This document shows, piece by piece, positions 9,629 to 55,982 of a DNA stretch of 64,000 nt. The position numbers and the translations under genes were made by a program. This DNA is from Bacillota bacterium (GTDB taxonomy: Bacteria; Planctomycetota; UBA8108; UBA1146): NCBI GenBank assembly GCA_003973385.1, contig QNYK01000023.1:2951-66950 (forward strand), written 5' to 3'. The notes under the pieces were generated by a model, which worked only from the letters and a program-made list of their open reading frames with translations, had not been told where the DNA came from and ran no database searches. Numbering within the stretch: the first letter of the stretch is position 1; each line of letters begins with the position of its first letter.

Positions 9629-10697
9629 GGGTAACTCCCCCCTCGAACATCGAGCGGGGGGAGACTTGATCTCCGATTACGATTTTGACCTCCCTTCGCG
9701 ATTGGTAGCCCAGCACCCCGCTGAAGTCCGCTCATCGTCTCGTTGCTTTTTCTGCACTCAGTCCTCCAGCATTCCGACCGAAGCACCCTTTCACTCCATC
9801 GCTGACCGGCTGGTAGGAGATGAACTTCTGGTGGTCAATGACACGCGCGTACTTCCTGCGCGAATCCGCTGCACGAGGAGCAGCGGAGGGGCGGTCGAGG
9901 CCTTCATGCTGCGGCCGCTGGGAGCAGGTCGATGGCAAGCTTGGCTCTCGCCTTCTCGGAGAATCAGGGCTGGAGAATGCCTCCAGACCAGCGGCCCACC
10001 GTTGACCGTGATCGAAAGACGAGGATCTGGCTGGGTGGTCGACCTGGGCCCGGAAGAGATACTGGAACAGATCGGCGAGGTCCCGCTTCCACCCTACATC
10101 CACAGGTCAAAGGAGGAACTTCGCCAGGATGGTCTCGACCGCGAACGCTATCAGACCATCTTCGCCCACCATGGAGGCGCAGTGGCGGCTCCGACCGCAG
10201 GGCTCCACTTCGACGAAAGCCTGATCGAAAAACTGCAATCGAAAGGAGTTCAGATCTTGCCAGTGACTCTGCATGTCGGACCTGGCACCTTTCGGCCGAT
10301 CGAGGCCGAGGTGATCCAGGATCACCGCGTCGACCCGGAGTGGTTCTCGGTCACCACTGAAACCAGGAGTTCTCTCGCCACTGCCAGGGATGAGGGACGC
10401 AAGATCATCGCAGTCGGGACAACCTGCCTGCGAGTACTCGAAAGTATCGGCCCCTTCCAGGCAGGTCCCGCCATCGAGTCCGAAACCGATCTGACCATCC
10501 TTCCAGGACATCGCTTCGAACATGTCGACGGCCTGATCACGAATTTCCATCTACCCAGATCATCTCTACTGGTGCTGGTCTGCTCCTTCCTGGGTCGAAG
10601 CAAGACGCTGAGCATCTACCAGCGTGCGATCGAGGCTGAATTTCGATTCTACTCCTACGGAGATTGCATGGCGATCCTGCCAGAAAACCATCGATGA
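9606..10697 (+). CDS. queA: S-adenosylmethionine:tRNA ribosyltransferase-isomerase.
   Basis: Matches QueA along its length: DYDFDLP, LVVNDTRVLPARI, LPPYI, YQTIFA, GAVAAPTAGLHF, GTFRPIE, VGTTCLRVLES, ITNFHLPRSSLLVLV, YRFYSYGDCM. Start may be the TTG at 9666. Confidence 0.9.
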   Translation: MTRMKRTEGNSPLEHRAGGDLISDYDFDLPSRLVAQHPAEVRSSSRCFFCTQSSSIPTEAPFHSIADRLVGDELLVVNDTRVLPARIRCTRSSGGAVEAFMLRPLGAGRWQAWLSPSRRIRAGECLQTSGPPLTVIERRGSGWVVDLGPEEILEQIGEVPLPPYIHRSKEELRQDGLDRERYQTIFAHHGGAVAAPTAGLHFDESLIEKLQSKGVQILPVTLHVGPGTFRPIEAEVIQDHRVDPEWFSVTTETRSSLATARDEGRKIIAVGTTCLRVLESIGPFQAGPAIESETDLTILPGHRFEHVDGLITNFHLPRSSLLVLVCSFLGRSKTLSIYQRAIEAEFRFYSYGDCMAILPENHR

Positions 10698-19816: not shown

Positions 19817-21751
19817 TCACAATTGTGATCCGCGCGGCTCAGGGTCCTTCTTCTCATCCGAATCCATCGCCTCGGTGACTCGTTCCTGGAAGGTATACCC
19901 CTTGATTCCGCCCTCGACGATGGAATACCGGGAGGCCACCCAGCCGAAGTACTTGTTGAGCAATGCCGACTCCGGAATATTTTCAGGATCGAACAGGAAC
20001 AGCAGTTCCTCGTTCGACGCGATATCCGGGATCATCAGTGGCAACATCCCAACCAGCGGTCTGAACATGTCCGCCACTTGACTGAGATTCTGCCCCATGT
20101 GGGTCATGGATATCGACCAGCCCTGGGTGGACTTGATCTTGGCCATCATCGCAGCAGTGCGCTTGTCGGAGCCGAACGCTTCTCCGTCCTCGTCATCGAG
20201 CAGACGCAGAGCCGCCTTCACATCGTCGACGGAAGTGGAAAAAATCAACCAGTCACCATCCATGGTCCAGGCAGGGATCACCGATGAACCCTGACCCGCA
20301 AACTCCGGGGGCACATCCCCGAGTGGATCAAAACTCCACACGTTCCGCCCCAGAAACTCTTGCTGCTCGATGGCTGGGCCCATCATCTCGGGGCCCGCAA
20401 GGCTCTCCATCAATTTTTCCCAGGGTCCTCGATCTCGGAGTTTGGCACAGATCACCACAGGTGGAGTGGAAGGTCCACCCATCATCGCCGCCATCGGATT
20501 GAAGGCCGATGTCGACGCATCCACAGGCGGAGTATAGGAACATATCGACCCCTCGATGGAGTCCACCAGTTCCATCACATCGACACCCGTCTGCAGTTTC
20601 ACCTCCTCGAGTCCCGCCTCCATCTCGGCCGCCATCTCTTCCGGATCTTGTTCGTTGATCACAGCCCCGATGGAAACGATGATGTCGAAGAGTTTCGAGA
20701 GTTCGAGACGCATCAGGCTGAAGGACGCTATGCCCTCGGGAACAAATCCCGGGATGCTGATATCAGAGTTTGCAGCCGGAATGATGCCCAGGATTCCCTT
20801 ACGGCCCTCGATTCCCACGATGGCATCGGCGCCGATACCATCCTCGGTGTAGTAGCCCCGACTTGCCATACCACTGATGGTCTCAAGGCCGATGGCGTCG
20901 ATGATCTTCGAAGGCTTGAACGCATCAGCAAATGTGTCGCCATCTTCTCCATCGAAACCGGGTTCAGGTGGGCCGCCACCTCCCGCAAACATGTCGAGCA
21001 TGGGGATCAGGTTCCACAGTGCATCGAGATTGAAATAGAGCCGAATCGAGCCTCTACGAAGATGCGTCTGGGCCAGTTGAAAGATGCGAGTGGAATCGAA
21101 TCGATCTCCCACCGCAGTTCCACCTTCGGCGAGATACTGCTCCAGGCTCATCTTGTTGGTTCCGATGACATGATGATCCTCGAACTGACCGACGAAGATG
21201 CCGACTCCGGGCATTTGTTCGATACCGGTGAACTCGATGTCTCCGATACTGAAGGTCCGCATCGGAGTTGGCTGCCCCCTTTCCTCCAGCACTTCTTTGA
21301 GCATCGAGAGGAAATTCTTGTGGGTGGCCCCGAACTCGGCAGGACCGTGAAAGTCAATCACCAGATCCGGCATCGGCATGCCCATGCTGGGATCCATCTG
21401 GTAGCCCAATCCGAAAACAAACTCACCGGTCATCTGGTCGGACATGCTGGAGAGATGCTCCCAGAAGGACTCCAGTTTTTGCTTCGCCTCGGGGTCGTCT
21501 TCGAGGCCTACGGCAACCAGTGCCCCGATCCCCGCCGCAAGTCGCTCGCCAATCTTCTGGATCGATGGCTCCTGCAGGAATTGGGCGATGTCGCTGTCTT
21601 TGTACTGATCACGATCGGCCTGCCAGTCGTCGACCGAGTAGACCAATACAGAGTATTTTCCCAGTTTGCCTCCACCTGCCTGTGCCTGATCGGTGAAACC
21701 GATCGATGTAGACACGGCAAAAAGCGTCAGCATCAGAATTCTGGATACCAT
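19817..21751 (-). CDS. Secreted hypothetical protein (~645 aa).
   Basis: Signal peptide MVSRILMLTLFAVSTSIGFTDQAQA. No catalytic motif recognised. Start assigned to the internal Met at 21751 to avoid overlapping the upstream protease gene. Confidence 0.5.
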   Translation of the reverse strand: MVSRILMLTLFAVSTSIGFTDQAQAGGGKLGKYSVLVYSVDDWQADRDQYKDSDIAQFLQEPSIQKIGERLAAGIGALVAVGLEDDPEAKQKLESFWEHLSSMSDQMTGEFVFGLGYQMDPSMGMPMPDLVIDFHGPAEFGATHKNFLSMLKEVLEERGQPTPMRTFSIGDIEFTGIEQMPGVGIFVGQFEDHHVIGTNKMSLEQYLAEGGTAVGDRFDSTRIFQLAQTHLRRGSIRLYFNLDALWNLIPMLDMFAGGGGPPEPGFDGEDGDTFADAFKPSKIIDAIGLETISGMASRGYYTEDGIGADAIVGIEGRKGILGIIPAANSDISIPGFVPEGIASFSLMRLELSKLFDIIVSIGAVINEQDPEEMAAEMEAGLEEVKLQTGVDVMELVDSIEGSICSYTPPVDASTSAFNPMAAMMGGPSTPPVVICAKLRDRGPWEKLMESLAGPEMMGPAIEQQEFLGRNVWSFDPLGDVPPEFAGQGSSVIPAWTMDGDWLIFSTSVDDVKAALRLLDDEDGEAFGSDKRTAAMMAKIKSTQGWSISMTHMGQNLSQVADMFRPLVGMLPLMIPDIASNEELLFLFDPENIPESALLNKYFGWVASRYSIVEGGIKGYTFQERVTEAMDSDEKKDPEPRGSQL

Positions 21752-21807
21752 GCTGGTATCTCCTTCCACGGGCAAATCACGGCCCGCAATGATCAGGGAA
21801 TTGCGGG

Positions 21808-22758
21808 TCAATCCCCGGGTTGGTTCTTTCTGGGGGGTGGAATGTATCGCACTCCCGTATTTGGTTGGCTTTCGTCAAAGAGAAAGGCCTCCCTACGATC
21901 GATGAAAAACTTCACCTGATCCAGCGGAATCGCAAAATTGAGCCCCTCGGATTGAAGAATCTTCATGTTCGTGACACCGATCACCTCGCCCGCCTCGTTG
22001 AAGAGTGCGCCTCCAGAATTTCCGGGGTTGATCGGAGTTGTGGTCTGGATGTAGACCTGACCCTCGAAAGAGCGATATGGATCAGAGATGATTCCCTCGC
22101 TCACTGTTCGCTCGAAGCCTCGCGGAGTTCCGACCGCGAACACCTTTTGACTGCGATCGAGCGATCCGGCAGCCGCAAACTTGACCGATTTCAGGGGTAG
22201 TTTGCTTGCATCCGGAATTCTCAACAGAGCCAGGTCGAGAAATGGATTGAGCGCGACGATCTCGACATTCTCGATCTGCTGCTTGCGAGCCCCACCGACC
22301 GCATCGTCCAGGTATACGGTGATTTGAATGTCCCTCTCTCCCTCGACGACATGCACATTCGTGATCACCAGTCCATCATCACTGATGATGAAACCACTAC
22401 CGAGACCGCCTCCCGCCAGCACCCGGACAACAGAGCGTCGGGCACGACTCTCCGCTTCCTGTAGAGGCAGCGGAATTCCCGGTCCGATCTGGTAAATGGT
22501 CTCCACATCCGGTCGCTCCAGTTCCTCCCCCGTGGCACTGATCTGCCGCCGGCTGATCACTGAATTGAGGGGTATCTGGATGATGGTGAGGCCGATGTCG
22601 ACGAATAGTTTTTTGTCGTCCTCCTTGATCACACTTCCGGAAACTGAATTGCCTCCGACCAGTTCGATCAACTCGCGATTTGCCGTGGGAGCGGCAGCGA
22701 TCTCGTCATTCGGGGGTGCCTGGGCTCCAGAGAGGGCAGCGACCAGGATGAATGCCAT
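21808..22758 (-). CDS. Secreted trypsin-like (S1C/HtrA-type) serine protease domain protein without PDZ.
   Basis: Signal peptide MAFILVAALSGAQA. TNVHVV (His), DLALLRI (Asp) and GNSGGALFN (Ser) form the catalytic triad context. Confidence 0.8.
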   Translation of the reverse strand: MAFILVAALSGAQAPPNDEIAAAPTANRELIELVGGNSVSGSVIKEDDKKLFVDIGLTIIQIPLNSVISRRQISATGEELERPDVETIYQIGPGIPLPLQEAESRARRSVVRVLAGGGLGSGFIISDDGLVITNVHVVEGERDIQITVYLDDAVGGARKQQIENVEIVALNPFLDLALLRIPDASKLPLKSVKFAAAGSLDRSQKVFAVGTPRGFERTVSEGIISDPYRSFEGQVYIQTTTPINPGNSGGALFNEAGEVIGVTNMKILQSEGLNFAIPLDQVKFFIDRREAFLFDESQPNTGVRYIPPPRKNQPGD

Positions 22759-28414: not shown

Positions 28415-30484
28415 TCAAGGGCAAGAATCGTAGTTCAGGCAGGTAATGGTGTCCGGAGTCGGATCCATACCGCAGGACTCTCCGGGCGCAGGGAGCGAGG
28501 ACGAGCCGAACAGATAGCCCAGCAGGGTCACTGGATCCGAGATGTCGATCTCTCCATCGTCATTGCAATCCACTGCCGATAGGCACGACGGATCCGGCTG
28601 GCCGCTGAACAGGAAACCCAGTGCCCTGACAGCATCGGCGATGTTCACAACGCCGTCATCATTGGGATCTCCCCTTCGAAAACTCGCCGATTCGCAACTA
28701 TCAGGAATCCCATTGGCATCTGCATCCGCTTCAGCACCACTGGCAATGTCGCAACTGTCGGGAATGCTGTTCGAATTGCAGTCTGCAGTCGTTCCCGCAT
28801 CGATCTCACAAACATCGATGGACCCGTTCCCGTTGCAATCATCGGCTATCCCCAGGTCAATCTCGCAGTTGTCGAGGAGCATGTTGCTGTTGCAATCTTC
28901 TGCGGTTCCCGCTGCGATTTCACACAGATCGGGAATGTTATCGAAGTCGCAATCGAAAACGGTTCCATTCTGGATGTCACAGGCATCGTGAACTCCGTTG
29001 CCATTGCAATCATTAGCTGCCAGCTGGCAGACGTCGGGTATCCCGTCTGCGTCGCAATCCTCGGCACCAGCTTCGATATCACAAGAATCTTCGACACCAT
29101 TTGCGTCACAGTCAGTGGTCGGGGTCTGGCAAGAATCAGGAATCAGATCGCCATCACAATCGACTTCAATTCCGGAAGCGATATCACAGGCATCCGGTTC
29201 TCCGTTATTGTTGCAATCGGTCGTGTTTCCGATGGCGCATTCACAGGAATCGACGATGAAGTTGCCGTTGAGATCGAGACTGGCGATGTCTGCAGGAACG
29301 ATCTTGAAGATCTCGCCACCAGACCAGTCGCAGATGTAGACCTCGCCGTAGGCATCCTGCCCGAATCCTGCGATACCGGTGATGCTCTGGGAGCCCGGAG
29401 GATTCAGTTCAGAACTTCTGGTCGTGAACTCGGTGACATTGGTTCCGTTGTACCGGAACGACCAGATCTGGTTGGAACACCAGTCTGCATAGAAGTAGAT
29501 GCCCTGCATATCTGGCATCGCACAGCCGCTGTAAACATTGCCGCCGGTGATCGAGCACCCGCTGCCGTGGTTGTAGACCTGTTGAGGATCGGTCAGGGCG
29601 CTGGAGTTGCAGGTACAACCGGACATGTTCGTACAGTTGTTGCCTTCCATGCAGCGCCAACCGTAATTTTCTCCACCTGGAGAACTCGCCAACTGGATGT
29701 TGATCTCTTCCCAGTTGTACTGCCCCACATCTGCGATGTAGAGGTCTCCGGTCAGTCTGTCGAAAGAGAAGCGCCACGGATTCCGCAGCCCGGTCGCCCA
29801 GATCTCATCGAGAGGTGCACCGGGACCGGCGAATGGATTATCTGCAGGGATCGAATAGGGGGTGCCACCATCGACATCAATCCGGAGCATCTTACCCAGC
29901 CGGGTATTGGGGTTCTGTCCATTGCCCTGGGGATCATTGGCGCTGCCACCATCCCCGAGCCCGATGTACAGGTAGCCATCGATGGGGCTGAATTCCAGCA
30001 TTCCACCATTGTGATTGGAATATGGCTGATTCTGAGTCAGTACGATCTGAGCACTGGATGGAATTGCCACATTTGGATTCGTAGAAGACACCGAGTAGCG
30101 AGCCACCGTCGTGTTCGAAGCATTGTTGGTGTAGTACACGTAGAAGTACCCGTTACTGGAGTAGTCCGGATGAAATGCAAGACCGAGTAATCCTCGTTCA
30201 TCGGCTCCGGAAGTGCCGCCCCCGACGATCGAGTTGATATCGAGGAATGGGGTCGAGATCAGTTGTGCGTTGGTCATGTCGTAGACGCGGATGGTCCCTT
30301 GCTGCTGAACGATGAAGAGACGTTCAAAATCCCCTGCTGGAGCCGTCACCAGTACAGGCCGGGAGACTCCACTGGCGATTCGCCGGGTCGAAAGCGGTGT
30401 CCCCCCTGCGTCGAGCGGAGGAGGTGAGACCAGCAGCAAAATCAGCAGAACGCCGATAAATCTCGTAAAAGCCATCTCGATCAC
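28415..30484 (-). CDS. Secreted PQQ/glucose-sorbosone dehydrogenase (GSDH)-type β-propeller protein with about 10 Cys/Asp-rich Ca-binding-like tandem repeats and a C-terminal dockerin-like domain.
   Basis: Signal peptide. GLLGLAFHPDYSSNGYFYVYYT and GDLYIADVGQ match GSDH propeller motifs. Residues 423-600 are ~19-aa repeats DC[ND]x[ND]GxxDxC[DE]Ixxg. Residues 605-660 are GDPNDDGVVNIADAVRALGFLF + DCNDDGEIDISDPVTLLGYLF, a duplicated dockerin-type Ca loop-helix. Confidence 0.8.
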   Translation of the reverse strand: MIEMAFTRFIGVLLILLLVSPPPLDAGGTPLSTRRIASGVSRPVLVTAPAGDFERLFIVQQQGTIRVYDMTNAQLISTPFLDINSIVGGGTSGADERGLLGLAFHPDYSSNGYFYVYYTNNASNTTVARYSVSSTNPNVAIPSSAQIVLTQNQPYSNHNGGMLEFSPIDGYLYIGLGDGGSANDPQGNGQNPNTRLGKMLRIDVDGGTPYSIPADNPFAGPGAPLDEIWATGLRNPWRFSFDRLTGDLYIADVGQYNWEEINIQLASSPGGENYGWRCMEGNNCTNMSGCTCNSSALTDPQQVYNHGSGCSITGGNVYSGCAMPDMQGIYFYADWCSNQIWSFRYNGTNVTEFTTRSSELNPPGSQSITGIAGFGQDAYGEVYICDWSGGEIFKIVPADIASLDLNGNFIVDSCECAIGNTTDCNNNGEPDACDIASGIEVDCDGDLIPDSCQTPTTDCDANGVEDSCDIEAGAEDCDADGIPDVCQLAANDCNGNGVHDACDIQNGTVFDCDFDNIPDLCEIAAGTAEDCNSNMLLDNCEIDLGIADDCNGNGSIDVCEIDAGTTADCNSNSIPDSCDIASGAEADADANGIPDSCESASFRRGDPNDDGVVNIADAVRALGFLFSGQPDPSCLSAVDCNDDGEIDISDPVTLLGYLFGSSSLPAPGESCGMDPTPDTITCLNYDSCP
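28685..29278 (-). repeat. In-frame tandem array encoding ~10 copies of a 16-19-aa Cys/Asp repeat (thrombospondin-type-3-like) within the GSDH-dockerin protein.
   Basis: Protein-level periodicity DCNNNGEPDACDIASG / DCDANGVEDSCDIEAG / DCNGNGVHDACDIQNG / DCNSNMLLDNCEIDLG / DCNGNGSIDVCEIDAG / DCNSNSIPDSCDIASG, and more. Confidence 0.7.
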
Positions 30485-31657: not shown

Positions 31658-33346
31658 TTGTCCGTTGAACAGCCTGTTTCCCACGGCCCCAGAATTGTCC
31701 GCGCTCCCAGAGGCAGCGAGATCTCCTGCCAGTCCTGGCTCACCGAAGCGCCACTACGGATGATCATGAACAACCTCGATCCAGAGGTAGCGGAAGATCC
31801 CGACAATCTGGTCGTGTATGGCGGCTCCGGAAAGGCTGCGCGCACGTGGGAATGCTTCGACGCCATCGTTTCTACACTACGACAGATGCGCCCCGACGAG
31901 ACACTCCTGATCCAGAGCGGTAAACCCGTGGGAGTCGCCCGCACACATGCCGATGCTCCGAGAGTGCTGATCGCCAACTCGAATCTTGTTCCGCGCTGGG
32001 GAACCATCGAGGAATTCCGTCGACTGGAGGCGGAAGGCCTGACGATGTACGGCCAGATGACCGCGGGCTCATGGATATACATCGGAACCCAGGGAATCCT
32101 GCAAGGGACCTACGAGACCTTTGTCGAAGCGAGTCGGCAACATTTCGACGGAAACCTCTCTGGCCGTTGGATCCTCACCGCCGGTCTGGGTGGAATGGGT
32201 GGAGCCCAACCACTGGCCGCATCGATGGCTGGCGCAGTGTCTCTGAACATCGAGGTCGATCCTGATCGGATCCGTCGACGCATCGAGACACGTTATCTCG
32301 ATGAGGCATTCGATGATCTGGACAAGGCTCTCGAACGCGTCCATCAACTGTGCCAGGCAGGCGAGGTACGATCTGTTGGCGTCCTGGGTAACGCTGCAGA
32401 GTTGGTTCCCGAGATCCTTGCCAGAGGCATCGTCCCTGACATGGTGACCGATCAAACCAGCGCACATGACGCACTGTGTGGATATGTGCCCGATCAGGTG
32501 ACGCTGGAGGAGGCGCTGCGACTTCGAGGTCAGGATCCTGACCGTTACCTGAAACTATCGATGGACTCGATGCGACGCCATTGCGAGGCGATCGTCGGCC
32601 TGCAAGCAGCGGGTTCCATCGCATTCGATTATGGCAACAACCTCAGGGGTCAGGCGCAGGATGCAGGCCTCGAGAGCGCATTCGACTACCCCGGATTCGT
32701 GCCAGCCTATGTCCGGCCGCTCTTTTGCCGGGGTAAGGGACCATTTCGCTGGGTCGCGCTCAGCGGTGATCCTGCAGACATCTACCGCACCGACGAGGCG
32801 ATTCTCGAATTGTTTCCGGAGGATGAACATCTTTGCCACTGGATCCGTACCGCACAGGAACGAGTCCAGTTCCAGGGACTTCCGGCGAGGATCTGCTGGC
32901 TCGGTTACGGCGAACGTGCTCGCTTCGGCATCAAGATCAATGAACTGGTCGCCAGTGGAGAAATTTCTGCCCCCATCGTCATCGGCCGAGATCATCTCGA
33001 TTGCGGCTCCGTGGCCTCACCTTACAGGGAGACGGAATCGATGCTCGATGGCTCGGATGCCATCGCAGACTGGCCCCTGATCAATCTGATGTTGAACACC
33101 GCCAGCGGAGCCACCTGGGTCTCGCTCCATCATGGCGGCGGCGTTGGTATCGGTAACTCGATACACGCCGGAATGGTGGTGGTCGCCGATGGAACTCCAG
33201 AGGCCTCTGCGCGACTCGAAAGGGTCCTGACCAATGATCCCGGCACCGGGATCTGGCGCCATGTCGATGCTGGATATGAAGATGCCACTCGATTCGCCGA
33301 TGAGAACTCCCTCTGGGTGCCGATGCGTGGGGAGCGACCTCGATGA
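31658..33346 (+). CDS. hutU: Urocanate hydratase.
   Basis: [55 protein letters not shown] and downstream regions align with HutU throughout; 562 aa. Confidence 0.9.
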
Positions 33347-34608
33347 ATCAAAGCATTGACCTCCTGATCGAGAATGTTGGAAGGCTGCTTCCCGGTCATG
33401 CGAAACCCGTCGAGGGAGTTTCGGTAGCGGTCGACGCAGGAAAGATCAAAGCTCTGGGACCGGCGGGAGACCTCGCCGGTCTTTTTGATGGGCGACAGTC
33501 CTTTGATGGCAGCGGTTCACTCCTGACTCCCGGCTTCGTCGACTCACACACTCACCTCGTGTTCGGCGGCAATAGAGCTGGAGAGTTCGTACACCGTTGC
33601 CAGGGTAGAGACTACGAACAGATCGCAGCCGAAGGGGGTGGCATCAGAGCCTCCGTCAAGATGACGCGAGAGGCGAGCCTCGATCAACTGGTCGAAGATG
33701 CCAGGCCCAGACTGGCGCGAATGATCGCAGCTGGATCCACCACCATCGAGATCAAGAGCGGCTACGGTCTCGATGCTGCAACTGAACTGAAGATGCTGCG
33801 AGCCATCCGTCAACTCGCCGAAGAACACCCGATCGAGATCGTGGCCACTTTCATGGGAGCTCACGAGGTCCCCGATGAATGGCAACATGATCGAGCGGAA
33901 TATGTACGGATCATCTGCGAGGAGATGATCCCTCAGGTCGCGGAGGATGGGCTGGCCGAATTCTGCGATGTGTTCTGTGAAAGAGGGGTTTTTGACCCCG
34001 CTGAGAGCACCCGGATTCTCCAGGCAGGCCTCGAACACGGCCTCAAACCCAAGATACACGCCGACGAACTCGCTGCCTCTGGAGGCTCGCTTGTTGCGGG
34101 CGAGATCGGTGCAGTAAGCGCAGATCATCTGATGCAGATCACACCCGATGGGATCGATGCCCTCAGAAGTGCTTCGGTGGTCGCAACACTACTTCCCGGG
34201 ACCACTTTCTATCTACGTAAATCCGGTTACGCTCCGGCTCGGCCGCTGATCGATGCCGGGCTCGATCTGGCCATCGCAACGGACAGGAATCCTGGTTCCT
34301 GCACCATCGAAAGCATGCTGTTCATCGCGGGATTATCCGTGATGCATCTGGGTTTGACTCCTGGAGAAGCACTCCGTGCAGCAACGTATGGAGGGGCCAT
34401 GGCACTCGACCGTGAAAAGGTCTGCGGGTCCATCGAAGAAGGAAAAAGAGCAGATTTGATCCTGTGGAATGCTCCAGACGAGGATGTACTGATTCACGAG
34501 TTCGCCAACGAGGTGCCACGCACCGTCTTCGCCGCAGGCAGGGTCGTCTCCGATTCTCAAGGTGACAGAACTGAAAGATCCGGTGTCCATCCGGACCAGG
34601 GGGTTTGA
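33343..34608 (+). CDS. hutI: Imidazolonepropionase.
   Basis: [32 protein letters not shown] are amidohydrolase HutI motifs. Start overlaps the hutU stop. Confidence 0.9.
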
Positions 34609-36824
34609 ACAAGATGTCCAAGTTCATCGATCGACTTACCCAGGCTATGAAAGAACAAGCATGGGGTGAGTACGAAGAGGCGTGGCTCGACGCCATCGAA
34701 GGCGAGAATGTTCGCTTTTCGGAATACCTCAATGCGACCAGCAATGCGATCACCGCCGGGCACGGAGAAAGAGCAGGTCAGATGATGGAGTTGATTCTCC
34801 AATCAGGACTGACGGACGAACTGACTCCTGACAAGAAGTTAGAGTTTCATGAAGCGCTCGCTTGCAGCCTGCCGCGGAACAAGGATGCCCGCGAGACGCT
34901 GCTCGAACTGTACAGAAAACAGTTCGGGCACATCGAAGGATTTGACAATTGCGTCGAAACTTCAGGTTTGATGGATGGCACCAGACCGGCCGAAGTGATC
35001 CCGCTGTTCAAGCGTATGGTGCACTATCAGCCGGGATCGTATGTCAAACACCGCTCTGGCTGGGGCGTTGGCGTTGTGAAGGAACTGGACCCTGCCCTGG
35101 GAACCGCAACCGTTGATTTCGAGAAAAAGGATGGTCATTCCGTAAAGCTGGAAGCACTGCCGCAGATCTGTGACCCGCTCGAAGCGGATCACTACCTGGT
35201 ACTCGGCTGGCAACGCCCGGAGGAGTTACGGCGAATCGCCGAGGACGAACCGGGCGAATTGATCAAACTGGTACTGAGAACCAGTAGCCGGCCGATCCCG
35301 TTGGCGCGAATTCGGGAAGCGTTGGTCGGAGTCGCGGTTCCAGCCACATCCTGGAGCAAGTGGTGGTCCAGAGCCCGAACCGCGATCAAGAAGGATCCCC
35401 TGGTCGGTCTCTCGGGCGGAAAAAACAACGAGTTGTACCTGCTCGATGGACCCGAAGCACTCGCCACCAGCATCGAGCGGCGCTTCTCTGGTCTCAGCCC
35501 CAAGGACCGCCTCAAGACGATTCGAGAGTGCTTGAGCGAGATTCCGGATGATCAACATCCGCTCCTCGATGGCCAGTTCAAGATACTGCGCCGTGACATC
35601 GTCCGTGGAGACCTCGACCATGCGAATCGAGTCTCCGCACTCTTGCTCCTGCGCGATCACGCACCCGATGGCGAGGAAGAATCTGCCATCGGAGCACTGG
35701 TCTTGAGAGCGGGCCACTGCGCAGATCTGCTCAACTCTCTCGGCCGCGATGACGATTTGCGGGATACGCTGGCGCTGATCCGGGAATTGAACCCTGACGA
35801 CTGGGTGCAATTGCGAAGCGAACTGATCCTGCAAGCAGATGATTCTCTGCGCGAACTTGTACTCAACCTGCTTGACGATTCTGGCGAACTGGCGATTGCT
35901 GATCAGATCGCATCCAGCGTGTTACATAGACCACGCAGATCACCGCTGTTCTTCCTCTATCTGGCACGTTGCTCCGCCTCGGAAAATTCTACGAAGTTCC
36001 CATCACTGAAAGGTGCTTCGGCTCCCGATCTCTTCCGCCAGGCTGCGGCACTGTTTGATCGGCTCTCACTCGAAAATGAGGGATCAGCGAAGAACCCAGG
36101 GCTTGAAATCGCAGTGAAGCGATACAGGCAACACCTCTCGGTGAAGCCATTTGCGCTGCTGAGTAGGGTTCTCGATCGATGTGGCCTGACAGATGCTCGC
36201 GAGATCTACATGCAACTTGCAGGCTCGCGCAGCATCAGCGACTCGAACCTTGACAAGGCCAAGGCCATCATCTTGCGCAAATTCCCCAAGGTACTCGCAG
36301 GACAACCGAGCCGCGGAAGTGTTGCAGTCGCAGAAAGTGCCATCTACTCGACCGAGTTTGGGCTATCCAAAGTTCAAAGCGAACTCGAAGAGATCCGAAA
36401 TGTGAAACTTCCCGAGATATTCAAGGCGATCGGGGATGCCGCAGCACTGGGAGACCTGAGCGAAAATGCAGAGTTCACCTCTGCCATCGAGGAACGAGAA
36501 AACCTGAATCGCAAGGTGATGGAACTTCAGGGAGACCTGGATCGAGCCCGCGTCATCGACCCCGAGGAAGCGAGCATCGATCAGATTGGTCTCGGCAGCC
36601 AGATCCGTTTCCATAACCTCTCTACCGATTCAGTGGCTGAATACTGCCTGCTCGGGCCGTGGGACGGCGGGCCTGACGAGGGGGTACTCTCCTATCTCTC
36701 CCCGCTCGGGAAGGCGATGCTACAGAAAAAGGTCGGTGATCAGTTCGATGTCAAACTGCCGACCGGTGTCCATAGCATCAAGATACTGGAGATCAGTCAG
36801 GGCAAGGTTCCAGAGCAGATTTAG
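34605..36824 (+). CDS. 739-aa protein with a C-terminal GreA/GreB transcript-cleavage-factor module and a ~580-aa uncharacterised N-terminal region.
   Basis: The last ~160 aa align with GreA: coiled coil with GDLSENAEF (cf. GDLKENAEY), ARVID, and FKBP-like tail SPLGKAMLQKKVGDQFDVKLPTGVHSIKILEI. Start overlaps the hutI stop. Confidence 0.7.
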   Translation: MNKMSKFIDRLTQAMKEQAWGEYEEAWLDAIEGENVRFSEYLNATSNAITAGHGERAGQMMELILQSGLTDELTPDKKLEFHEALACSLPRNKDARETLLELYRKQFGHIEGFDNCVETSGLMDGTRPAEVIPLFKRMVHYQPGSYVKHRSGWGVGVVKELDPALGTATVDFEKKDGHSVKLEALPQICDPLEADHYLVLGWQRPEELRRIAEDEPGELIKLVLRTSSRPIPLARIREALVGVAVPATSWSKWWSRARTAIKKDPLVGLSGGKNNELYLLDGPEALATSIERRFSGLSPKDRLKTIRECLSEIPDDQHPLLDGQFKILRRDIVRGDLDHANRVSALLLLRDHAPDGEEESAIGALVLRAGHCADLLNSLGRDDDLRDTLALIRELNPDDWVQLRSELILQADDSLRELVLNLLDDSGELAIADQIASSVLHRPRRSPLFFLYLARCSASENSTKFPSLKGASAPDLFRQAAALFDRLSLENEGSAKNPGLEIAVKRYRQHLSVKPFALLSRVLDRCGLTDAREIYMQLAGSRSISDSNLDKAKAIILRKFPKVLAGQPSRGSVAVAESAIYSTEFGLSKVQSELEEIRNVKLPEIFKAIGDAAALGDLSENAEFTSAIEERENLNRKVMELQGDLDRARVIDPEEASIDQIGLGSQIRFHNLSTDSVAEYCLLGPWDGGPDEGVLSYLSPLGKAMLQKKVGDQFDVKLPTGVHSIKILEISQGKVPEQI

Positions 36825-38196
36825 GCGAATCAGTGGAACCGGTGGCTCCCATCAACTGCTCCAGGAGTATGGTAGCAAAGGCTCCTGCAGGCAGGCTGAA
36901 GTGGACCATCAAACACTGCTGATCATCTTCCCAGACAACTGATGGATCTCCGACCTGGATACGCAAGGGGCGACGCGTACCATCCAGTTTCATCCCCTTG
37001 ACATGGGAGAGCCAGGAGTCGGGCCGCAGTCCCTCGGAAATCAGCACTGCACTTTCAATCTTGCCCGCCTCCCCTTGAGGCAACTTCATCTTTCTCCCGA
37101 AAATGGGCCCGGTCGGACTGATCTGGCCCTCTCTCGCACGCTGTTGCTCTCGGCTCACATCTTCTGCATCGAGAGAGACATGGTATCTGGAGCGCTGTCC
37201 CTCCAGCTGGCAGACATCACCTCCCCACGGCATCCAGAAGCCATCGTTGCTTCTCTGGATCCGTTCCATCAGGACCCAGTTGAAGAGTTCCGCCTGATAT
37301 GCCGAGTAGTACATCTTTCGAAGTGCGTGTGGGATCCTGCGAGCTGCCGCACGGAGGTTGCCGGGGTGAGTCCGCAGCGATGTCAGGAGTGCTGCCTCGG
37401 TGGTCCTACCGGGTGGCAATAGTCTGCGAGCCTCATCGATTTCACCGGCACTGTAGGCTGTTCGATATTCCTCCTCAACTCCATCACGTGGCGCCAGTAG
37501 CAACTCGACAGCCTCGGCAATCTGCCTGCGCAGCAGTGCAGCTCCGATTCGAGCACCATCTCCATGCATTCCGAAGCGTTGCGGACCGTAGAAGTTTGGC
37601 AATCCGCTGACCGCGACCTGCTCGAGGTGTGTTTTCACATGCTCGATCGAGTTGGGCTGCACATCGCGGATCCGGATCTCGAAGCGATTTCCAGACAGGT
37701 GACCTGTTCGAATCTTGTTTCGATGCCGTGAAACCGACACTACCCGGATCCATGGTGCCTCGATCGCCTCGACACCTTTATCGCTCAGCAATTGAACCGA
37801 AAAGGTCTGGGTGGCGATGGCTCTCTTGTCCTTGAATCCTGCAAATCCGACCTGCTCACGCTTCACCGCCAGTGTTCGGGCGATGTGATCGCGCGCCTGG
37901 ATCGTCGTCCGATTGCTCTTCTCGACGGTGATATAGAGATGTTCTCCTGCCCCACAGGGGCTGTAGAGCGGTATCTCGGTGACCCTGAAATCCTCCCAGC
38001 GCTGACGGATGACTCCACCGATGGGAGGGATCTGTGGCAGGATCCTGGGCGGGTGGTATCCGGAGGCGCGATCGGTGCCGAGAACATCTGCGGGATCCAC
38101 CTCGATGATCTGTGCCACCGTCTCGGGATCTGCATCCTCGCCGGTAGCATCCAGAGGCGGGTCCATCGGGGCCTCGTCTGTCGGTTGCTGACTCAT
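36793..38196 (-). CDS. truD: tRNA pseudouridine(13) synthase TruD family.
   Basis: GFAGFKDKRAIATQ matches the TruD motif that includes the catalytic Asp, and RFGMHG is also characteristic of TruD. The ORF extends to 38364; the internal Met at 38196 is preferred. Confidence 0.75.
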   Translation of the reverse strand: MSQQPTDEAPMDPPLDATGEDADPETVAQIIEVDPADVLGTDRASGYHPPRILPQIPPIGGVIRQRWEDFRVTEIPLYSPCGAGEHLYITVEKSNRTTIQARDHIARTLAVKREQVGFAGFKDKRAIATQTFSVQLLSDKGVEAIEAPWIRVVSVSRHRNKIRTGHLSGNRFEIRIRDVQPNSIEHVKTHLEQVAVSGLPNFYGPQRFGMHGDGARIGAALLRRQIAEAVELLLAPRDGVEEEYRTAYSAGEIDEARRLLPPGRTTEAALLTSLRTHPGNLRAAARRIPHALRKMYYSAYQAELFNWVLMERIQRSNDGFWMPWGGDVCQLEGQRSRYHVSLDAEDVSREQQRAREGQISPTGPIFGRKMKLPQGEAGKIESAVLISEGLRPDSWLSHVKGMKLDGTRRPLRIQVGDPSVVWEDDQQCLMVHFSLPAGAFATILLEQLMGATGSTDSPKSALEPCPD

Positions 38197-38507
38197 CCGA
38201 AAGGTTCTCCTGACCCCGAAGGGACGCCCGGCCGCGGCTTCTCGAGCCCCATGCGACGTAATCGGGGATTTCACCCCAACGGAGGGCATCCCGGAGACGA
38301 TCGTACCAGTTTCCACATCGCAGGTGATAACGGTTCCGGGTAGAAGCTGCGACGATCTGCCCACGATGGGTCCCGCACGCCAGGTCTGGCCCTGCTGCTG
38401 ATATTTATGTGGTGTGAACCATCGTCTCCCCTCGACAGCCGGGTGACGCTAGGATATTGCACCCTTGCCGTCGGTGCGTGTTCGTCCCATCAGAGAGGAG
38501 CGAAGAG

Positions 38508-38867
38508 ATGACCACTGTTCCGAGCCGTCAACTCGAGACCTTCGAGAACCCACAGCCTCTGAGAGACTACACGATTCGATTCGACTGTCCCGAGTTCACC
38601 TGCCTGTGCCCGCTCACCGGTCAACCCGATTTTGCCCACTTCGAACTGGAATACGTCCCTGATACTCAATGCATCGAGAGCAAATCATTGAAACTCTACC
38701 TGTGGTCCTATCGAGACGAGGGTGCCTTCCACGAAGCGGTGACCAACCAGATCCTCGACGATCTGGTCGCTGCCTGCTCGCCACGCTGGATCAAGGTGAC
38801 CGGTCACTTCTTCGTCCGCGGCGGCATCACCCCGACCATCACCGTCGAACACGGCACCCGCTGCTGA
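38508..38867 (+). CDS. queF: NADPH-dependent 7-cyano-7-deazaguanine (preQ0) reductase, type I.
   Basis: [15 protein letters not shown] (catalytic Cys) and the QueF motif region [14 protein letters not shown]; 119 aa from the Met at 38508. Confidence 0.9.
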
Positions 38868-39148: not shown

Positions 39149-39823
39149 ATGAAATCCTCAGTCCACCAGAATCCGGGTACCGAGCGGTCCCTGACAGGGA
39201 CTCGTGCTCGGGTTCTCGATGTCATCCAGGCTGGAGTGCAGCAAGGTCGTCGCGCCACGGTTCGGGAAATCGCGGCTCAACTGGGTCTTTCTTCCCCCGC
39301 TTCGGTACACAGACACCTGCGCCGTCTCGAACGAGACGGTTTCATCCGCCGAGATCCGCTCGGTGGTTCCCGCAGTTGGATGCCAACTGCACCGGGTTCG
39401 ATTCCGATCGTTGGCCTCATCGCCGCAGGACAACCGATCGAAAGTTGTACCGATGACGGAAGTCAGCCACTCGAATGGCTCGACATTGCCCCACAAACCT
39501 TTGCCAGTTCCGGTGACATTGTGGCACTCAAGATCAAGGGTAGAAGTATGCAGGATGCGGGAATCCTGTCAGGAGACCTGGCCATCGTCCGGCGACAACC
39601 GATGGTCGAGAATGGTGAAGTCGCTGCCGTCACCGTCGATGGAAAGGGCACGCTCAAGAGCTGGCGAATCGAAACCCCTGGCACAGGCCAGCGATCTCGT
39701 CGACGGGTTCGGCTCAAGGCAGCCCATCCCGAGTTCGAGGATATCGAAGTTGATCCCGAGCATCATTCGATCGAGGTGTTCGGAAAACTGGTCGGGATCA
39801 TTCGTCACTTTGATCGACCCTGA
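39149..39823 (+). CDS. lexA: LexA repressor (S24 peptidase).
   Basis: N-terminal winged HTH (TVREIAAQLGLSSPASVHRHLRRLERDGFI), Ala-Gly cleavage region (LIAAGQPI), and catalytic Ser in KGRSMQDAGI with downstream Lys (KGTLKSW). Confidence 0.92.
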   Translation: MKSSVHQNPGTERSLTGTRARVLDVIQAGVQQGRRATVREIAAQLGLSSPASVHRHLRRLERDGFIRRDPLGGSRSWMPTAPGSIPIVGLIAAGQPIESCTDDGSQPLEWLDIAPQTFASSGDIVALKIKGRSMQDAGILSGDLAIVRRQPMVENGEVAAVTVDGKGTLKSWRIETPGTGQRSRRRVRLKAAHPEFEDIEVDPEHHSIEVFGKLVGIIRHFDRP

Positions 39824-54600: not shown

Positions 54601-54668
54601 CGGCCGCTCCTCTCGCGGGCGCGCATGGTGCTGTGCCGGGGCCCCCGGCACAAGCGAAGGGTAGATGG

Positions 54669-54682
54669 CGAACATATGTTCG
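54669..54682. promoter_or_regulatory. Candidate LexA operator (Cheo box) in the dinB promoter.
   Basis: Perfect palindrome CGAACATATGTTCG, 41 nt upstream of the dinB ATG and 27 nt before the AAAGGAG RBS. Confidence 0.75.
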
Positions 54683-54722
54683 CTATCCTATCACCCCTCG
54701 CCCCATCGAAAGGAGCCGATCG

Positions 54723-55982
54723 ATGCGCCCGCTGGTCCTGCATCTGGACATCGATGCCTTCTTCGCCTCGGTCGAGCAACTGCGCAACCCTCGGCTGGCG
54801 GGGCGTCCGGTGGCGGTCGGCAGCGGGGTCATCGCATCGTGTTCCTACGAGGCGAGGGAACATGGCCTGCAGGCGGGTATGCCGCTGGGCAAGGCGCTGC
54901 GCCAGTGCCCACCGCTGGTGATCGTGCGCGGACACGAATCGATCTACCGCTGCTACGCCGCCCGTCTGTTCGAGATCTGCCACAACTGGTCTCCGGTGGT
55001 GGAAGAACATCTCGACGAGGCGTATTGCGACCTGGCCGGAACCGAACGGATCTACCCCGATCCACGACAAGAGGTGGCACGACTGCGCGATGAGATCCAT
55101 TCGAGCACCGGATTGACCGTCACGGCGGGACTCGGCCGCAATCGGATGTTCGCCCGACTCATCGGCAAACTGCACAAACCCGATGGACTCGGATACATCG
55201 AACCGGAGCAGGAGGAATCGTTGCTGTTGCAACTACCGATCGAGAGCATCCCCGGAGTCGGCCCCCGCACCGCTACGGTGCTGTCGAACCTCGGCATCGA
55301 GAAGGTGGAACAACTGCGCGAACTGTCGCGCTCGGCGCTATCTGGACTGCTGGGACGAAACGGCGAGATCCTCTACGAACGCTGCCGAGGCGAGGATCAC
55401 CGTCTCATCGGCGGCCGTGAGATCCCCCGTAGCATCCAGCGGGGAACCTCCTTTGACGAGGACATCTCCTGTCCGCGCACTCTCGACGCGATGATCGAGT
55501 ACCTCGCTGAACGCATCGCCAGCAACCTGCGCCAGAGAGGTCTGGAAGCGGGAGGATTGGCACTTCAACTGGTTCACGGCGATCACCGACGCGATCGTCG
55601 ACGCGTCGCGCTGGCCCCACCCACCGCACTCGATCCTCCCATCATCAAGACCGCTCTCGAACTGCGTCGCGCGATGGAGGGACGCCGAACTGCGATCCGC
55701 TTCGTCGGCATCCACCTCGATCGCATCCGGCTCGCTGCCACGGTCGAGCAGGGAGATCTGTTCACGGCCACAACCGAAGACCCTGCTGACACCGATCTGC
55801 AGCAGCAGCAACGCTGGAAGCGACTTCTCGGCCAGGTTGACCGCATCCGGATGCGCCATGGCCACGGCGCACTGCTGCGCGGTAGCGCCCTGGCACTGCA
55901 AGATGGTCGGGATCGGGGTGGAACGGCTCTGGAGCGCGATCGACACGGACTCATCCTCCGCACCTCGTGCCTGACCCGTTGA
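54723..55982 (+). CDS. dinB: Y-family DNA polymerase IV-like (DinB).
   Basis: LHLDIDAFFASVEQ (catalytic Asp), SCSYEAREHG, DEAYCDL. Start assigned to the Met at 54723, just after the RBS and Cheo box. Confidence 0.85.
   Translation: MRPLVLHLDIDAFFASVEQLRNPRLAGRPVAVGSGVIASCSYEAREHGLQAGMPLGKALRQCPPLVIVRGHESIYRCYAARLFEICHNWSPVVEEHLDEAYCDLAGTERIYPDPRQEVARLRDEIHSSTGLTVTAGLGRNRMFARLIGKLHKPDGLGYIEPEQEESLLLQLPIESIPGVGPRTATVLSNLGIEKVEQLRELSRSALSGLLGRNGEILYERCRGEDHRLIGGREIPRSIQRGTSFDEDISCPRTLDAMIEYLAERIASNLRQRGLEAGGLALQLVHGDHRRDRRRVALAPPTALDPPIIKTALELRRAMEGRRTAIRFVGIHLDRIRLAATVEQGDLFTATTEDPADTDLQQQQRWKRLLGQVDRIRMRHGHGALLRGSALALQDGRDRGGTALERDRHGLILRTSCLTR

What the first reader, a model, noticed from the sequence alone, without database searches (positions are those of the whole stretch)
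34605..36824. Giant GreA-family protein (739 aa) translationally coupled to hutU-hutI
The C-terminal ~160 residues are a complete GreA/GreB module with the acidic tip residues conserved (GDLSENAEF). They are preceded by ~580 residues with no recognisable domain. The ATG overlaps the hutI stop (ATGA), and hutH and hutG are absent. Canonical Gre factors are ~160 aa. An N-terminal extension this large suggests a secondary-channel factor tethered to another function, or a regulator of RNAP.
Basis: partly seen in the sequence, partly recalled or inferred. Interest (0 to 1): 0.6.

Follow-up and report, generated by a model that had tools for sequence, protein, structure and literature searches.

The report
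Long-form GreA with Tudor domain
This is a real 736-residue transcript-cleavage factor (GreA) of a marine planctomycete and an ordinary member of an already catalogued family of "long GreA" proteins; its untested N-terminal extension contains a small domain of the type that repair helicases use to bind RNA polymerase.

Summary
The ORF is real, unbroken and native. Its last ~160 residues are a complete GreA module with the acidic tip GDLSENAEF.

Two details of the finding are wrong:
- The start is ATG 34614 (736 aa), 5 nt after the hutI stop, behind a conserved GGGGG/GGAGG Shine-Dalgarno-like site. The ATGA overlap is at hutU/hutI.
- The N-terminal ~575 residues do match known families. They align end to end with NCBIfam's long-GreA models ("transcript cleavage factor/unknown domain fusion protein"), and a 98% identical protein carries Pfam PF27167 HTH_GRAD.

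An N-terminus-only profile finds 2,226 cluster representatives, in Planctomycetota, Verrucomicrobiota and Acidobacteriota. C. trachomatis has a 715-aa GreA.

AlphaFold2 gives this layout: helical N-domain, Tudor barrel, winged HTH, alpha-solenoid, disordered linker, GreA.

The Tudor barrel is as conserved as the Gre coiled coil. It is related to the PcrA/UvrD RNA polymerase-binding Tudor domain (hhalign 93% and 88%), and the two residues PcrA needs to bind polymerase are kept.

Best reading: a housekeeping Gre factor with a second anchor on the polymerase. That step is inferred, not shown.

The hut linkage is gene order specific to this clade. This is a new member of a known kind, of modest interest.

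The parts
34614..36824 (+). Long-form greA gene (736 aa plus stop). The true start is ATG 34614, not TTG 34605.
   Evidence: ORF. Clade homologues of 734-739 aa (P0014: 764 aa with an extra N-terminal leader) all begin MS[KQDH][FL] at this position. Junction alignment.
34599..34603 (+). Shine-Dalgarno-like GGGGG inside the hutI 3' end, 10 nt before the ATG.
   Evidence: Conserved as GGGGG, GGAGG or AGGAG in 10 related loci, weaker (TAGGA) in L001. That it serves as a ribosome-binding site is inferred.
34614..35018 (+). N-terminal all-helical (TPR-like) domain, residues 1-135. It is absent from the ~610-630-aa Verrucomicrobiota forms and expanded with TPRs in the 820-910-aa forms.
   Evidence: AF2 helices 3-135, pLDDT 79-91. 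Alignment A1. Length classes. TPR hits in longer members.
35019..35189 (+). Tudor-like five-strand beta-barrel, residues 136-192, with motif PGSYVKH146RSGW150GVGVV...VDF169.
   Evidence: Cropped AF2 model, pLDDT 95. Foldseek: UvrD1 Tudor 9dqs TMt 0.73; UvrD CTD bound to the RNAP lobe 7egs_B TMt 0.75, rmsd 2.1 A. Profile against PDB sequences: UvrD1 E 0.011. Pfam per member. hhalign 93% and 88%. G151, G153 and F169 invariant; H146 nearly invariant.
35190..35459 (+). Winged helix-turn-helix, residues 193-282. Its third helix carries W247, W250 and W251 (WSKWW), which are invariant or nearly so. This is probably the core of Pfam HTH_GRAD.
   Evidence: AF2 helices 194-259 plus a two-strand wing. 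Weak profile match to SelB winged helices, E 0.11. Foldseek 1ku9. PF27167 on homologues. Where PF27167 begins and ends in this protein was not available.
35460..36296 (+). Alpha-helical solenoid, residues 283-561. It is the least conserved folded part.
   Evidence: AF2 helices, pLDDT about 76-94. Only generic TPR/HAT/ARM matches with rmsd above 20 A. Within-clade identity 0.54.
36297..36341 (+). Flexible linker, residues 562-576.
   Evidence: pLDDT below 50 at 564-574. Within-clade identity 0.39.
36342..36554 (+). Gre N-terminal antiparallel coiled coil, residues 577-647, with the acidic tip GDLSENAEF at nt 36450-36476.
   Evidence: PF03449, E 8.5e-18. Alignment to E. coli GreA 1grj. Tip motif kept in 154 of 161 family members.
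36555..36821 (+). Gre C-terminal globular domain, residues 648-736. In canonical Gre factors this domain binds the rim of the secondary channel.
   Evidence: PF01272, E 3.8e-20. The whole module superposes on GreA, GreB and RNAP-bound Gfh1 with TMt 0.81-0.87.
31658..34608 (+). hutU (31658-33346, start codon not verified) and hutI (33343-34608), overlapping by ATGA. They lie upstream on the same strand as greA and probably form an operon with it.
   Evidence: TIGR01228 936 bits and TIGR01224 438.7 bits, both above cutoff. Junction sequence. No sigma-70-like promoter match between hutU and greA, and no terminator-like site at the hutI-greA junction; the only +-strand terminator-like match lies inside hutU (32794-32807) and the count is below chance. 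Order conserved in the clade.

Best explanation
The gene encodes the long form of the transcript-cleavage factor GreA.

Shown or strongly supported:
- Residues 577-736 are a complete, catalytically competent-looking Gre module. By established Gre biology, its coiled coil enters the RNA polymerase secondary channel, and the two acidic tip residues promote cleavage of backtracked RNA and restart of elongation.
- Residues 1-576 are a conserved, folded extension that belongs to the same protein. The order is helical domain, Tudor barrel, winged HTH, alpha-solenoid, flexible linker.
- The whole architecture is an old, widespread, already catalogued family.

Inferred:
- The Tudor barrel is related to the PcrA/UvrD C-terminal Tudor domain and belongs to the wider Mfd-RID/CarD class. 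All of these dock on the RNA polymerase beta subunit.
- I propose it gives this GreA a second anchor on the polymerase. The solenoid and linker would act as a spacer, so the Gre finger stays tethered near the secondary channel.
- The tethering would raise occupancy relative to competing channel binders. It could also compete with UvrD/PcrA-type factors for their site on beta.
- The tryptophan-rich helix of the winged HTH may contact nucleic acid or another partner.

The position behind hutU-hutI is operon-style gene order specific to this planctomycete clade, not a functional link to histidine catabolism.

My probabilities: about 0.9 for a bona fide long-form GreA, and about 0.45 for the Tudor barrel acting as a polymerase anchor.
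For: Gre module:
- Pfam and NCBIfam matches.
- Alignment to 1grj with the tip conserved.
- Structural superposition TMt 0.81-0.87 on GreA, GreB and RNAP-bound Gfh1.

Fusion is real and ancient:
- Continuous ORF.
- Full-length alignment to NF004969 (query 10-714 on profile 9-703 of 718, E 3e-67) and NF011309.
- 2,226 representatives found with an N-terminus-only profile.
- 161 of 181 members carry the Gre module, and 154 of those 161 keep the tip motif.
- C. trachomatis has a 715-aa GreA and no greB (PMC10995303).

Fold: AF2 pLDDT 86 for the full protein and 95 for the crop.

Tudor kinship:
- Foldseek hits to UvrD1 and UvrD CTD Tudor domains.
- UvrD1, UvrD and PcrA CTDs are the top sequence-profile hits in the PDB.
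- PcrA_UvrD_tudor, CarD_TRCF_RID and DUF3553 hits in 6, 8 and 13 of 34 members.
- hhalign 93% and 88%.
- H146 and W150 align with PcrA H681 and W684. These were among the four residues (H681, W684, K712, L714) chosen for mutation, and point mutations in this domain greatly reduced RNAP binding (PMC5397179).
- The Tudor barrel (0.76) is about as conserved as the Gre coiled coil (0.79) within the clade.

Precedent: HelD combines a Gre-like arm with a second RNAP-binding arm (PMC7749165 abstract).

Synteny is limited to the clade.
Against: - No experiment or co-fold links this Tudor domain to RNA polymerase. Tudor barrels also bind histone tails, UvrB, ribosomal protein S10 and other partners.
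- The Foldseek E-values for the barrel are weak (0.05-0.24). Eukaryotic PHF1 and SGF29 Tudor domains score about the same.
- The window protein itself does not reach significance against any Tudor Pfam model.
- The equivalents of PcrA K712 and L714 are not clearly conserved (my reading).
- I could not compute whether one molecule can reach both the beta site and the secondary channel.
- The full-model pTM of 0.50 means the relative placement of the domains is not predicted.
- I could not check whether the genome also has a short greA.
Confidence: 0.6

Rival explanations
1. The extension does not bind polymerase. It is a recruitment or sensing platform. The Tudor-wHTH-solenoid would bind DNA, RNA or another protein such as UvrB, a sigma factor or a ribosomal protein. 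That would couple Gre activity to repair, translation or a signal, much as the N-terminal domain I of eukaryotic TFIIS binds other factors.
For: The PcrA Tudor domain also binds UvrB and other proteins through the same motif (PMC8318588). The winged HTH has three Trp residues that are invariant or nearly so on its third helix, and it weakly resembles the RNA-binding SelB winged helices. Solenoids and TPRs are typical protein-binding scaffolds.
Against: No partner is suggested by conserved gene neighbourhood; the neighbours differ between phyla. The closest relatives of the barrel are all polymerase binders.
Confidence: 0.25
2. The C-terminal module is a non-cleaving secondary-channel regulator of the Gfh1, Rnk or DksA type, so the protein inhibits or modulates polymerase rather than rescuing it.
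For: Gfh1 and Rnk structures are also matched. A review suggests the chlamydial long GreA may not be functionally comparable to E. coli GreA (PMC10995303).
Against: GreA models score far higher than the Rnk models (139.5 and 124 bits against 50 and 34 bits). The D-x-x-E acidic tip is kept in 154 of 161 members. The model matches the active GreA/GreB geometry, whereas free Gfh1 superposes at rmsd about 13 A. In C. trachomatis it is the only Gre factor listed.
Confidence: 0.08
3. The giant ORF is an artefact: two genes fused by a frameshift or assembly error. Alternatively, its tight linkage to hutU-hutI reflects a dedicated role in regulating histidine utilisation.
For: The arrangement hutU, hutI, then greA with 0-38 nt between hutI and greA is conserved down to 41% identity.
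Against: The same fused architecture occurs in hundreds of independent assemblies and several phyla. Composition is native. Distant members lie next to a Mur ligase or enolase with no hut genes.
Confidence: 0.03

Closest known systems
Long-form GreA of Chlamydiae and Spirochaetes. NCBIfam NF004969/PRK06330 'transcript cleavage factor/unknown domain fusion protein' and NF011309/PRK14720. Pfam architecture HTH_GRAD (PF27167) + GreA_GreB_N + GreA_GreB.
   Same: Same end-to-end architecture. The query aligns over residues 10-714 with 9-703 of the 718-position profile. The 98% identical P0001 carries PF27167. Size matches C. trachomatis CTL0004 at 715 aa.
   Different: Scores are far below the equivalog cutoffs (228 against 697 bits, 249 against 714 bits), so this is a distant planctomycete branch and not an orthologue by NCBI's rule. 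That those two models derive from Chlamydia and Borrelia is my own recollection, not a tool result.
Canonical GreA and GreB (about 158 aa; PDB 1grj, 2p4v, 6rin)
   Same: Coiled coil plus globular domain, an acidic tip, and 26-34% identity over the module.
   Different: Preceded by a folded 576-residue extension. Activity is untested.
PcrA/UvrD C-terminal Tudor RNAP-interaction domain (PF21196; PDB 5dma, 9dqs, 7egs/7egt), and more distantly the Mfd-RID/CarD domain (PF02559)
   Same: Five-strand barrel with motif G-x-x-V-x-H-x-x-W-G-x-G-x-V...[ILV]-D-F. hhalign 88-93%. The PcrA residues H681 and W684 are matched.
   Different: It sits inside a Gre factor, not at a helicase C-terminus, and is packed against a winged HTH. 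PcrA K712 and L714 are not clearly matched. Binding target unknown.
HelD (Bacillus and Mycobacterium RNAP-recycling NTPase)
   Same: It works in a comparable way: a Gre-like coiled coil in the secondary channel, joined in one polypeptide to a second element that grips polymerase elsewhere (PMC7749165 abstract).
   Different: HelD has an SF1 NTPase core and no acidic cleavage tip (from my own knowledge). There is no sequence relation to the extension here.
TPR-GreA/B-C-PIN conflict systems (Kaur et al. 2021, PMC8195603)
   Same: Helical repeats fused to a Gre C-terminal domain.
   Different: Those have no Gre coiled coil; they carry a PIN nuclease and variable effectors. This protein has a full Gre module, no PIN domain and no PADLOC hit.

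Membership tests
GreA/GreB transcript cleavage factors | N-terminal antiparallel coiled-coil domain (PF03449) | tested here: met
   Residues 578-647, E 8.5e-18, 64.8 bits against a cutoff of 24.5. AF2 helices 581-611 and 619-643.
GreA/GreB transcript cleavage factors | C-terminal globular domain (PF01272) | tested here: met
   Residues 656-728, E 3.8e-20. TMt 0.81-0.87 to GreA, GreB and RNAP-bound Gfh1.
GreA/GreB transcript cleavage factors | Two acidic residues at the coiled-coil tip (E. coli GreA D41 and E44) | tested here: met
   GDLSENAEF aligns with GDLKENAEY of 1grj. The motif is kept in 154 of 161 family members.
GreA/GreB transcript cleavage factors | Stimulates endonucleolytic cleavage of backtracked RNA and binds the secondary channel | not testable with these tools
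   Needs biochemistry with the cognate RNA polymerase.
Long-form GreA (NF004969, NF011309; Pfam HTH_GRAD + Gre) | Homology of the N-terminal extension over its full length | tested here: met
   NF004969: query 10-714 against profile 9-703 of 718, E 3.2e-67. NF011309: query 87-730, E 7.5e-74. An N-terminus-only profile recovers 2,226 representatives, nearly all with a Gre module.
Long-form GreA (NF004969, NF011309; Pfam HTH_GRAD + Gre) | Score above the NCBIfam equivalog cutoff | tested here: not met
   227.7 against 697 bits and 249.3 against 714 bits. It is homologous, but outside the narrow clades those models were calibrated on.
Long-form GreA (NF004969, NF011309; Pfam HTH_GRAD + Gre) | Pfam PF27167 HTH_GRAD present | tested here: inconclusive
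   PF27167 is precomputed on P0001 (98% identical) and on all close homologues. The model is missing from the local Pfam copy, so the window protein could not be scored directly.
PcrA/UvrD-type Tudor RNAP-interaction domain | Five-strand Tudor barrel fold | tested here: met
   AF2 strands at 143-189, pLDDT 95 in the crop. TMt 0.71-0.75 and rmsd 2.1-2.6 A to 9dqs and 7egs_B.
PcrA/UvrD-type Tudor RNAP-interaction domain | Sequence homology, including the H and W residues needed for RNAP binding (PcrA H681, W684) | tested here: met
   hhalign 93% to UvrD1 and 88% to the PcrA CTD, with H146 and W150 aligned to those residues. Mutagenesis in PMC5397179.
PcrA/UvrD-type Tudor RNAP-interaction domain | Significant match of this protein to PF21196 | tested here: not met
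   The window crop hits only DUF3553, at E 0.16. 6 of 34 family members hit PF21196, best E 1.6e-4.
PcrA/UvrD-type Tudor RNAP-interaction domain | Binds the RNAP beta subunit (lobe/SI1 TGE hairpin) | not testable with these tools
CarD/CdnL/TRCF RID (PF02559) | Match to the RID profile | tested here: inconclusive
   8 of 34 members match weakly, best E 0.0089. The window protein does not. No CarD or Mfd chain is in the top 50 Foldseek hits.
Gfh1/Rnk non-cleaving Gre-like regulators | Loss of the acidic tip or a truncated coiled coil, with a better match to the Rnk models | tested here: not met
   The tip and a full coiled coil are present. Rnk models score 49.9 and 34.1 bits against 139.5 for greA.
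TPR-GreA/B-C-PIN defence system | C-terminal PIN nuclease and a variable N-terminal effector | tested here: not met
   The protein ends with the Gre C-domain, with no PIN domain. No PADLOC hit.

The most novel reading that the evidence does not exclude
The extension makes long GreA a two-site, resident polymerase factor. Its PcrA/UvrD-type Tudor domain would occupy the same beta-subunit site that the pro-backtracking helicase UvrD/PcrA uses. The anti-backtracking Gre factor would then physically exclude the helicase, or hand over to it. This would be a built-in switch between transcript rescue and transcription-coupled repair in Planctomycetota, Verrucomicrobiota, Chlamydiae and Spirochaetes. 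The Trp-rich winged HTH would sense DNA or RNA at the stalled complex.
Probability: 0.15. Interest if true: 0.7.

Novelty: new member of a known kind. Interest (0 to 1): 0.33.

Why it matters
As an annotation it is routine: a long-form GreA, a family that Pfam and NCBIfam already model.

The wider point is that this architecture appears to be the Gre factor of whole phyla, including the pathogens Chlamydia and, by my recollection, Borrelia and Treponema. I found no functional study of the roughly 575-residue extension in the searchable literature.

Recognising a PcrA/UvrD-type Tudor domain in the extension, with the polymerase-binding His and Trp kept, gives a concrete hypothesis that can be tested cheaply. 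Point mutants and a pull-down would show why these lineages use a Gre factor four to five times the usual size.

Tried and rejected
Dead ends:
- Literature searches for GreA with word-start matching returned 'great' and 'greater' noise.
- Whole-word and locus-tag searches found only remarks that the chlamydial GreA is unusually large.
- Nothing was found for HTH_GRAD or for a planctomycete GreA extension.
- Foldseek with the full model gave only Gre hits plus meaningless solenoid matches at rmsd above 20 A, so I cropped the model.
The single-protein scan returned only the close clade.

Rejected readings:
- Frameshift or fusion artefact.
- hut-specific regulator.
- Defence system (PADLOC empty).
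- Foreign DNA (composition flat).

Not supported:
- The hairpin at 34579-34595 before the Shine-Dalgarno-like site looked conserved. Its covariation is not above the controls: 66 of 500 shuffles reach the observed score.
- Sigma-70 promoter and terminator scans were uninformative.

Not possible:
- Checking for a separate short greA in the same genome.
Full report
**Observation**

The window holds one uninterrupted ORF at 34605..36824 on the + strand, 739 aa when read from the first possible start. Its C-terminal ~160 residues are a complete Gre module:
- Pfam GreA_GreB_N at residues 578-647 (E 8.5e-18) and GreA_GreB at 656-728 (E 3.8e-20).
- TIGR01462 greA at 139.5 bits against a cutoff of 139.
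- An alignment to E. coli GreA 1grj in which GDLSENAEF (nt 36450-36476) matches GDLKENAEY, the tip that holds D41 and E44.

Two details of the finding do not hold.
- The codon at 34605 is TTG, and it overlaps the hutI stop as TTGA. Clade homologues begin MS[KQDH][FL] at the position of ATG 34614, which gives 736 aa.
- That ATG lies 5 nt after the hutI TGA. It sits behind a GGGGG/GGAGG Shine-Dalgarno-like element that is conserved in related loci.

hutU and hutI are genuine; both pass their NCBIfam equivalog cutoffs. No HutH or HutG domain turned up in the 35 window ORFs I scanned. No second Gre gene is in the window. Base composition across the gene matches its surroundings.

**The extension is recognisable**

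NCBIfam has two models for long GreA proteins.
- NF004969 is described as 'transcript cleavage factor/unknown domain fusion protein' and has 718 positions. It aligns with query residues 10-714 (E 3e-67).
- NF011309 has 906 positions and aligns with residues 87-730 (E 7.5e-74).
- Both scores are well below the equivalog cutoffs, so this is a distant branch of the same family.

Close homologues, including one 98% identical, carry a precomputed Pfam domain PF27167 named HTH_GRAD, together with both Gre domains. That model is not in the local Pfam copy, which explains its absence.

A profile built only from the N-terminal region found 2,226 representatives of 50%-identity clusters at E<=0.001, and 945 at E<=1e-30.
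- Of the 181 sequences fetched, 161 carry a Gre module. The other 20 include 18 shorter than 590 aa (probably fragments), P0166 with a truncated Gre N-domain, and P0047 (708 aa) with no Pfam hit.
- 154 of those 161 keep the G-D-x-x-E-N-x-x-[FYW] tip.
- Named members come from Planctomycetota, Verrucomicrobiota (Luteolibacter, Chthoniobacterales, Pedosphaera) and Thermoanaerobaculia.
- A review records that the C. trachomatis GreA (CTL0004) is 715 aa and 'unusually large', and that greB is absent there (PMC10995303).

I found no paper that studies the extension. The fusion is therefore real, ancient and already catalogued, but functionally unexplored.

**Anatomy**

AlphaFold2 on a 22-sequence alignment gave mean pLDDT 86 and pTM 0.50. 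The low pTM means the domains are confident but their mutual arrangement is not. The layout is:

| Residues | Element |
|---|---|
| 1-135 | helical domain |
| 143-189 | five-strand barrel |
| 194-276 | helix-turn-helix with a two-strand wing |
| 283-561 | helical solenoid |
| 564-574 | disordered linker |
| 577-729 | Gre module |

The Gre module superposes on GreA, GreB and RNAP-bound Gfh1 at TMt 0.81-0.87. The flipped free-Gfh1 conformation fits poorly, at rmsd about 13 A.

The ~610-630-aa Verrucomicrobiota forms lack the first helical domain. The 820-910-aa forms add TPR repeats there.

**The barrel**

A cropped model of residues 128-286, built on 134 sequences, reached pLDDT 95 and pTM 0.86. 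The barrel and winged HTH therefore behave as one rigid unit. Several lines tie the barrel to bacterial polymerase-binding Tudor domains.
- Foldseek against the PDB places it among Tudor domains. The bacterial hits are M. smegmatis UvrD1 Tudor (9dqs, TMt 0.73) and the E. coli UvrD C-terminal domain bound to the RNAP lobe (7egs_B, TMt 0.75, rmsd 2.1 A). Eukaryotic PHF1 and SGF29 Tudor domains and the NusG KOW domain score alongside them, and E-values are weak at 0.05-0.24.
- A sequence profile of the unit, searched against all PDB sequences, ranks UvrD1 Tudor first (E 0.011). The E. coli UvrD CTD (E 0.14) and the PcrA CTD (E 0.97) follow.
- Scanned one by one, 13 of 34 family members hit DUF3553, 8 hit CarD_TRCF_RID and 6 hit PcrA_UvrD_tudor, best E 1.6e-4.
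- hhalign gives 93% probability to UvrD1 Tudor and 88% to the PcrA CTD.
- In those alignments H146 and W150 of the motif PGSYVKH-RSG-WGVGVV match PcrA H681 and W684. These were among the four residues (H681, W684, K712, L714) selected for mutation, and point mutations in this domain greatly reduced RNAP binding (PMC5397179).
- The equivalents of K712 and L714 are not clearly kept.
- Within the planctomycete clade, the Tudor barrel (identity 0.76) is about as conserved as the Gre coiled coil (0.79). Both are far more conserved than the solenoid (0.54) or the linker (0.39).

**Mechanism**

Established Gre biology explains the C-terminal module. It inserts into the secondary channel and rescues backtracked complexes.

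For the extension, the best-supported inference is a second anchor on RNA polymerase through the Tudor barrel. This is how PcrA/UvrD (beta lobe/SI1), Mfd and CarD (beta1) attach (PMC8318588 and PMC5397179). The solenoid and linker would serve as a spacer. HelD is a precedent for one polypeptide that joins a Gre-like arm to a second polymerase-gripping arm (PMC7749165).

The anchoring step is inferred, not shown. I put it at about 0.45. The main rival is that the extension recruits another partner or a nucleic acid. The winged HTH has three tryptophans that are invariant or nearly so on its third helix, and it weakly resembles SelB winged helices.

Other readings are disfavoured:
- A non-cleaving Gfh1/Rnk-like role is unlikely because the tip is conserved and the greA models score much higher.
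- A defence-system reading (TPR-GreA/B-C-PIN, PMC8195603) fails because there is no PIN domain and no PADLOC hit.

**Context**

The gene order ispH(-), then hutU-hutI-greA, then truD(-), then queF and lexA is conserved across this marine Planctomycetota clade, down to 41% GreA identity. The hutI-greA gap is 0-38 nt. More distant members lie after a Mur ligase, or before enolase in Luteolibacter, with no hut genes nearby.

Co-transcription and coupled translation with hutI are plausible. A functional tie to histidine catabolism is not supported.

**Verdict**

This is a correctly spotted but ordinary member of the known long-GreA family, so I class it as a new member of a known kind. The residual interest is the untested role of the extension. 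The Tudor assignment made here offers a specific and cheap experiment to address it.

Noticed in passing
window 34579-34595 (+), inside the hutI 3' end: An inverted repeat TCCGG(N7)CCGGA lies just upstream of the Shine-Dalgarno-like site of greA. It is present in most clade relatives, with one G-C to A-U exchange. The covariation is not above the shuffle controls (66 of 500), so RNA structure is not supported.
   Followed up: yes
window 36793-36824: greA (+) and truD (-) converge, and their 3' ends overlap by 32 nt. The same overlap appears in relatives L004, L007 and L012, but most other clade loci show no overlap. It leaves no room for terminators between the two genes.
   Followed up: partly
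window 33343-33346: hutU and hutI overlap as ATGA.
   Followed up: yes
P0055 (1032 aa), P0109 (950 aa), P0047 (708 aa): Unusual family members. P0055 has an N-terminal histone-deacetylase domain fused upstream. P0109 has a sigma-70 region 3 fragment. P0047 is full length with no detectable Gre module. These could be real fusions or gene-calling artefacts.
   Followed up: no
window 9606-10697, 36793-38364, 38457-38867; also 39149-39823 and 54633-55982: The window holds several tRNA-modification genes: queA, truD and queF. It also holds lexA and a Y-family polymerase (IMS/DinB-like). Nothing links them to greA beyond proximity.
   Followed up: no
window 28415-30484 (-): A glucose/sorbosone dehydrogenase-domain protein has a long C-terminal tail. 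The tail carries many repeats of a CD-x-NG-x-PD-x-CDI-like motif and ends in a dockerin-like segment.
   Followed up: no
window 299-3426 (-), 7839-8795 (+), 19817-21811 (-): Four sizeable ORFs of 568, 474, 318 and 664 aa have no Pfam match at E<=1e-5.
   Followed up: no
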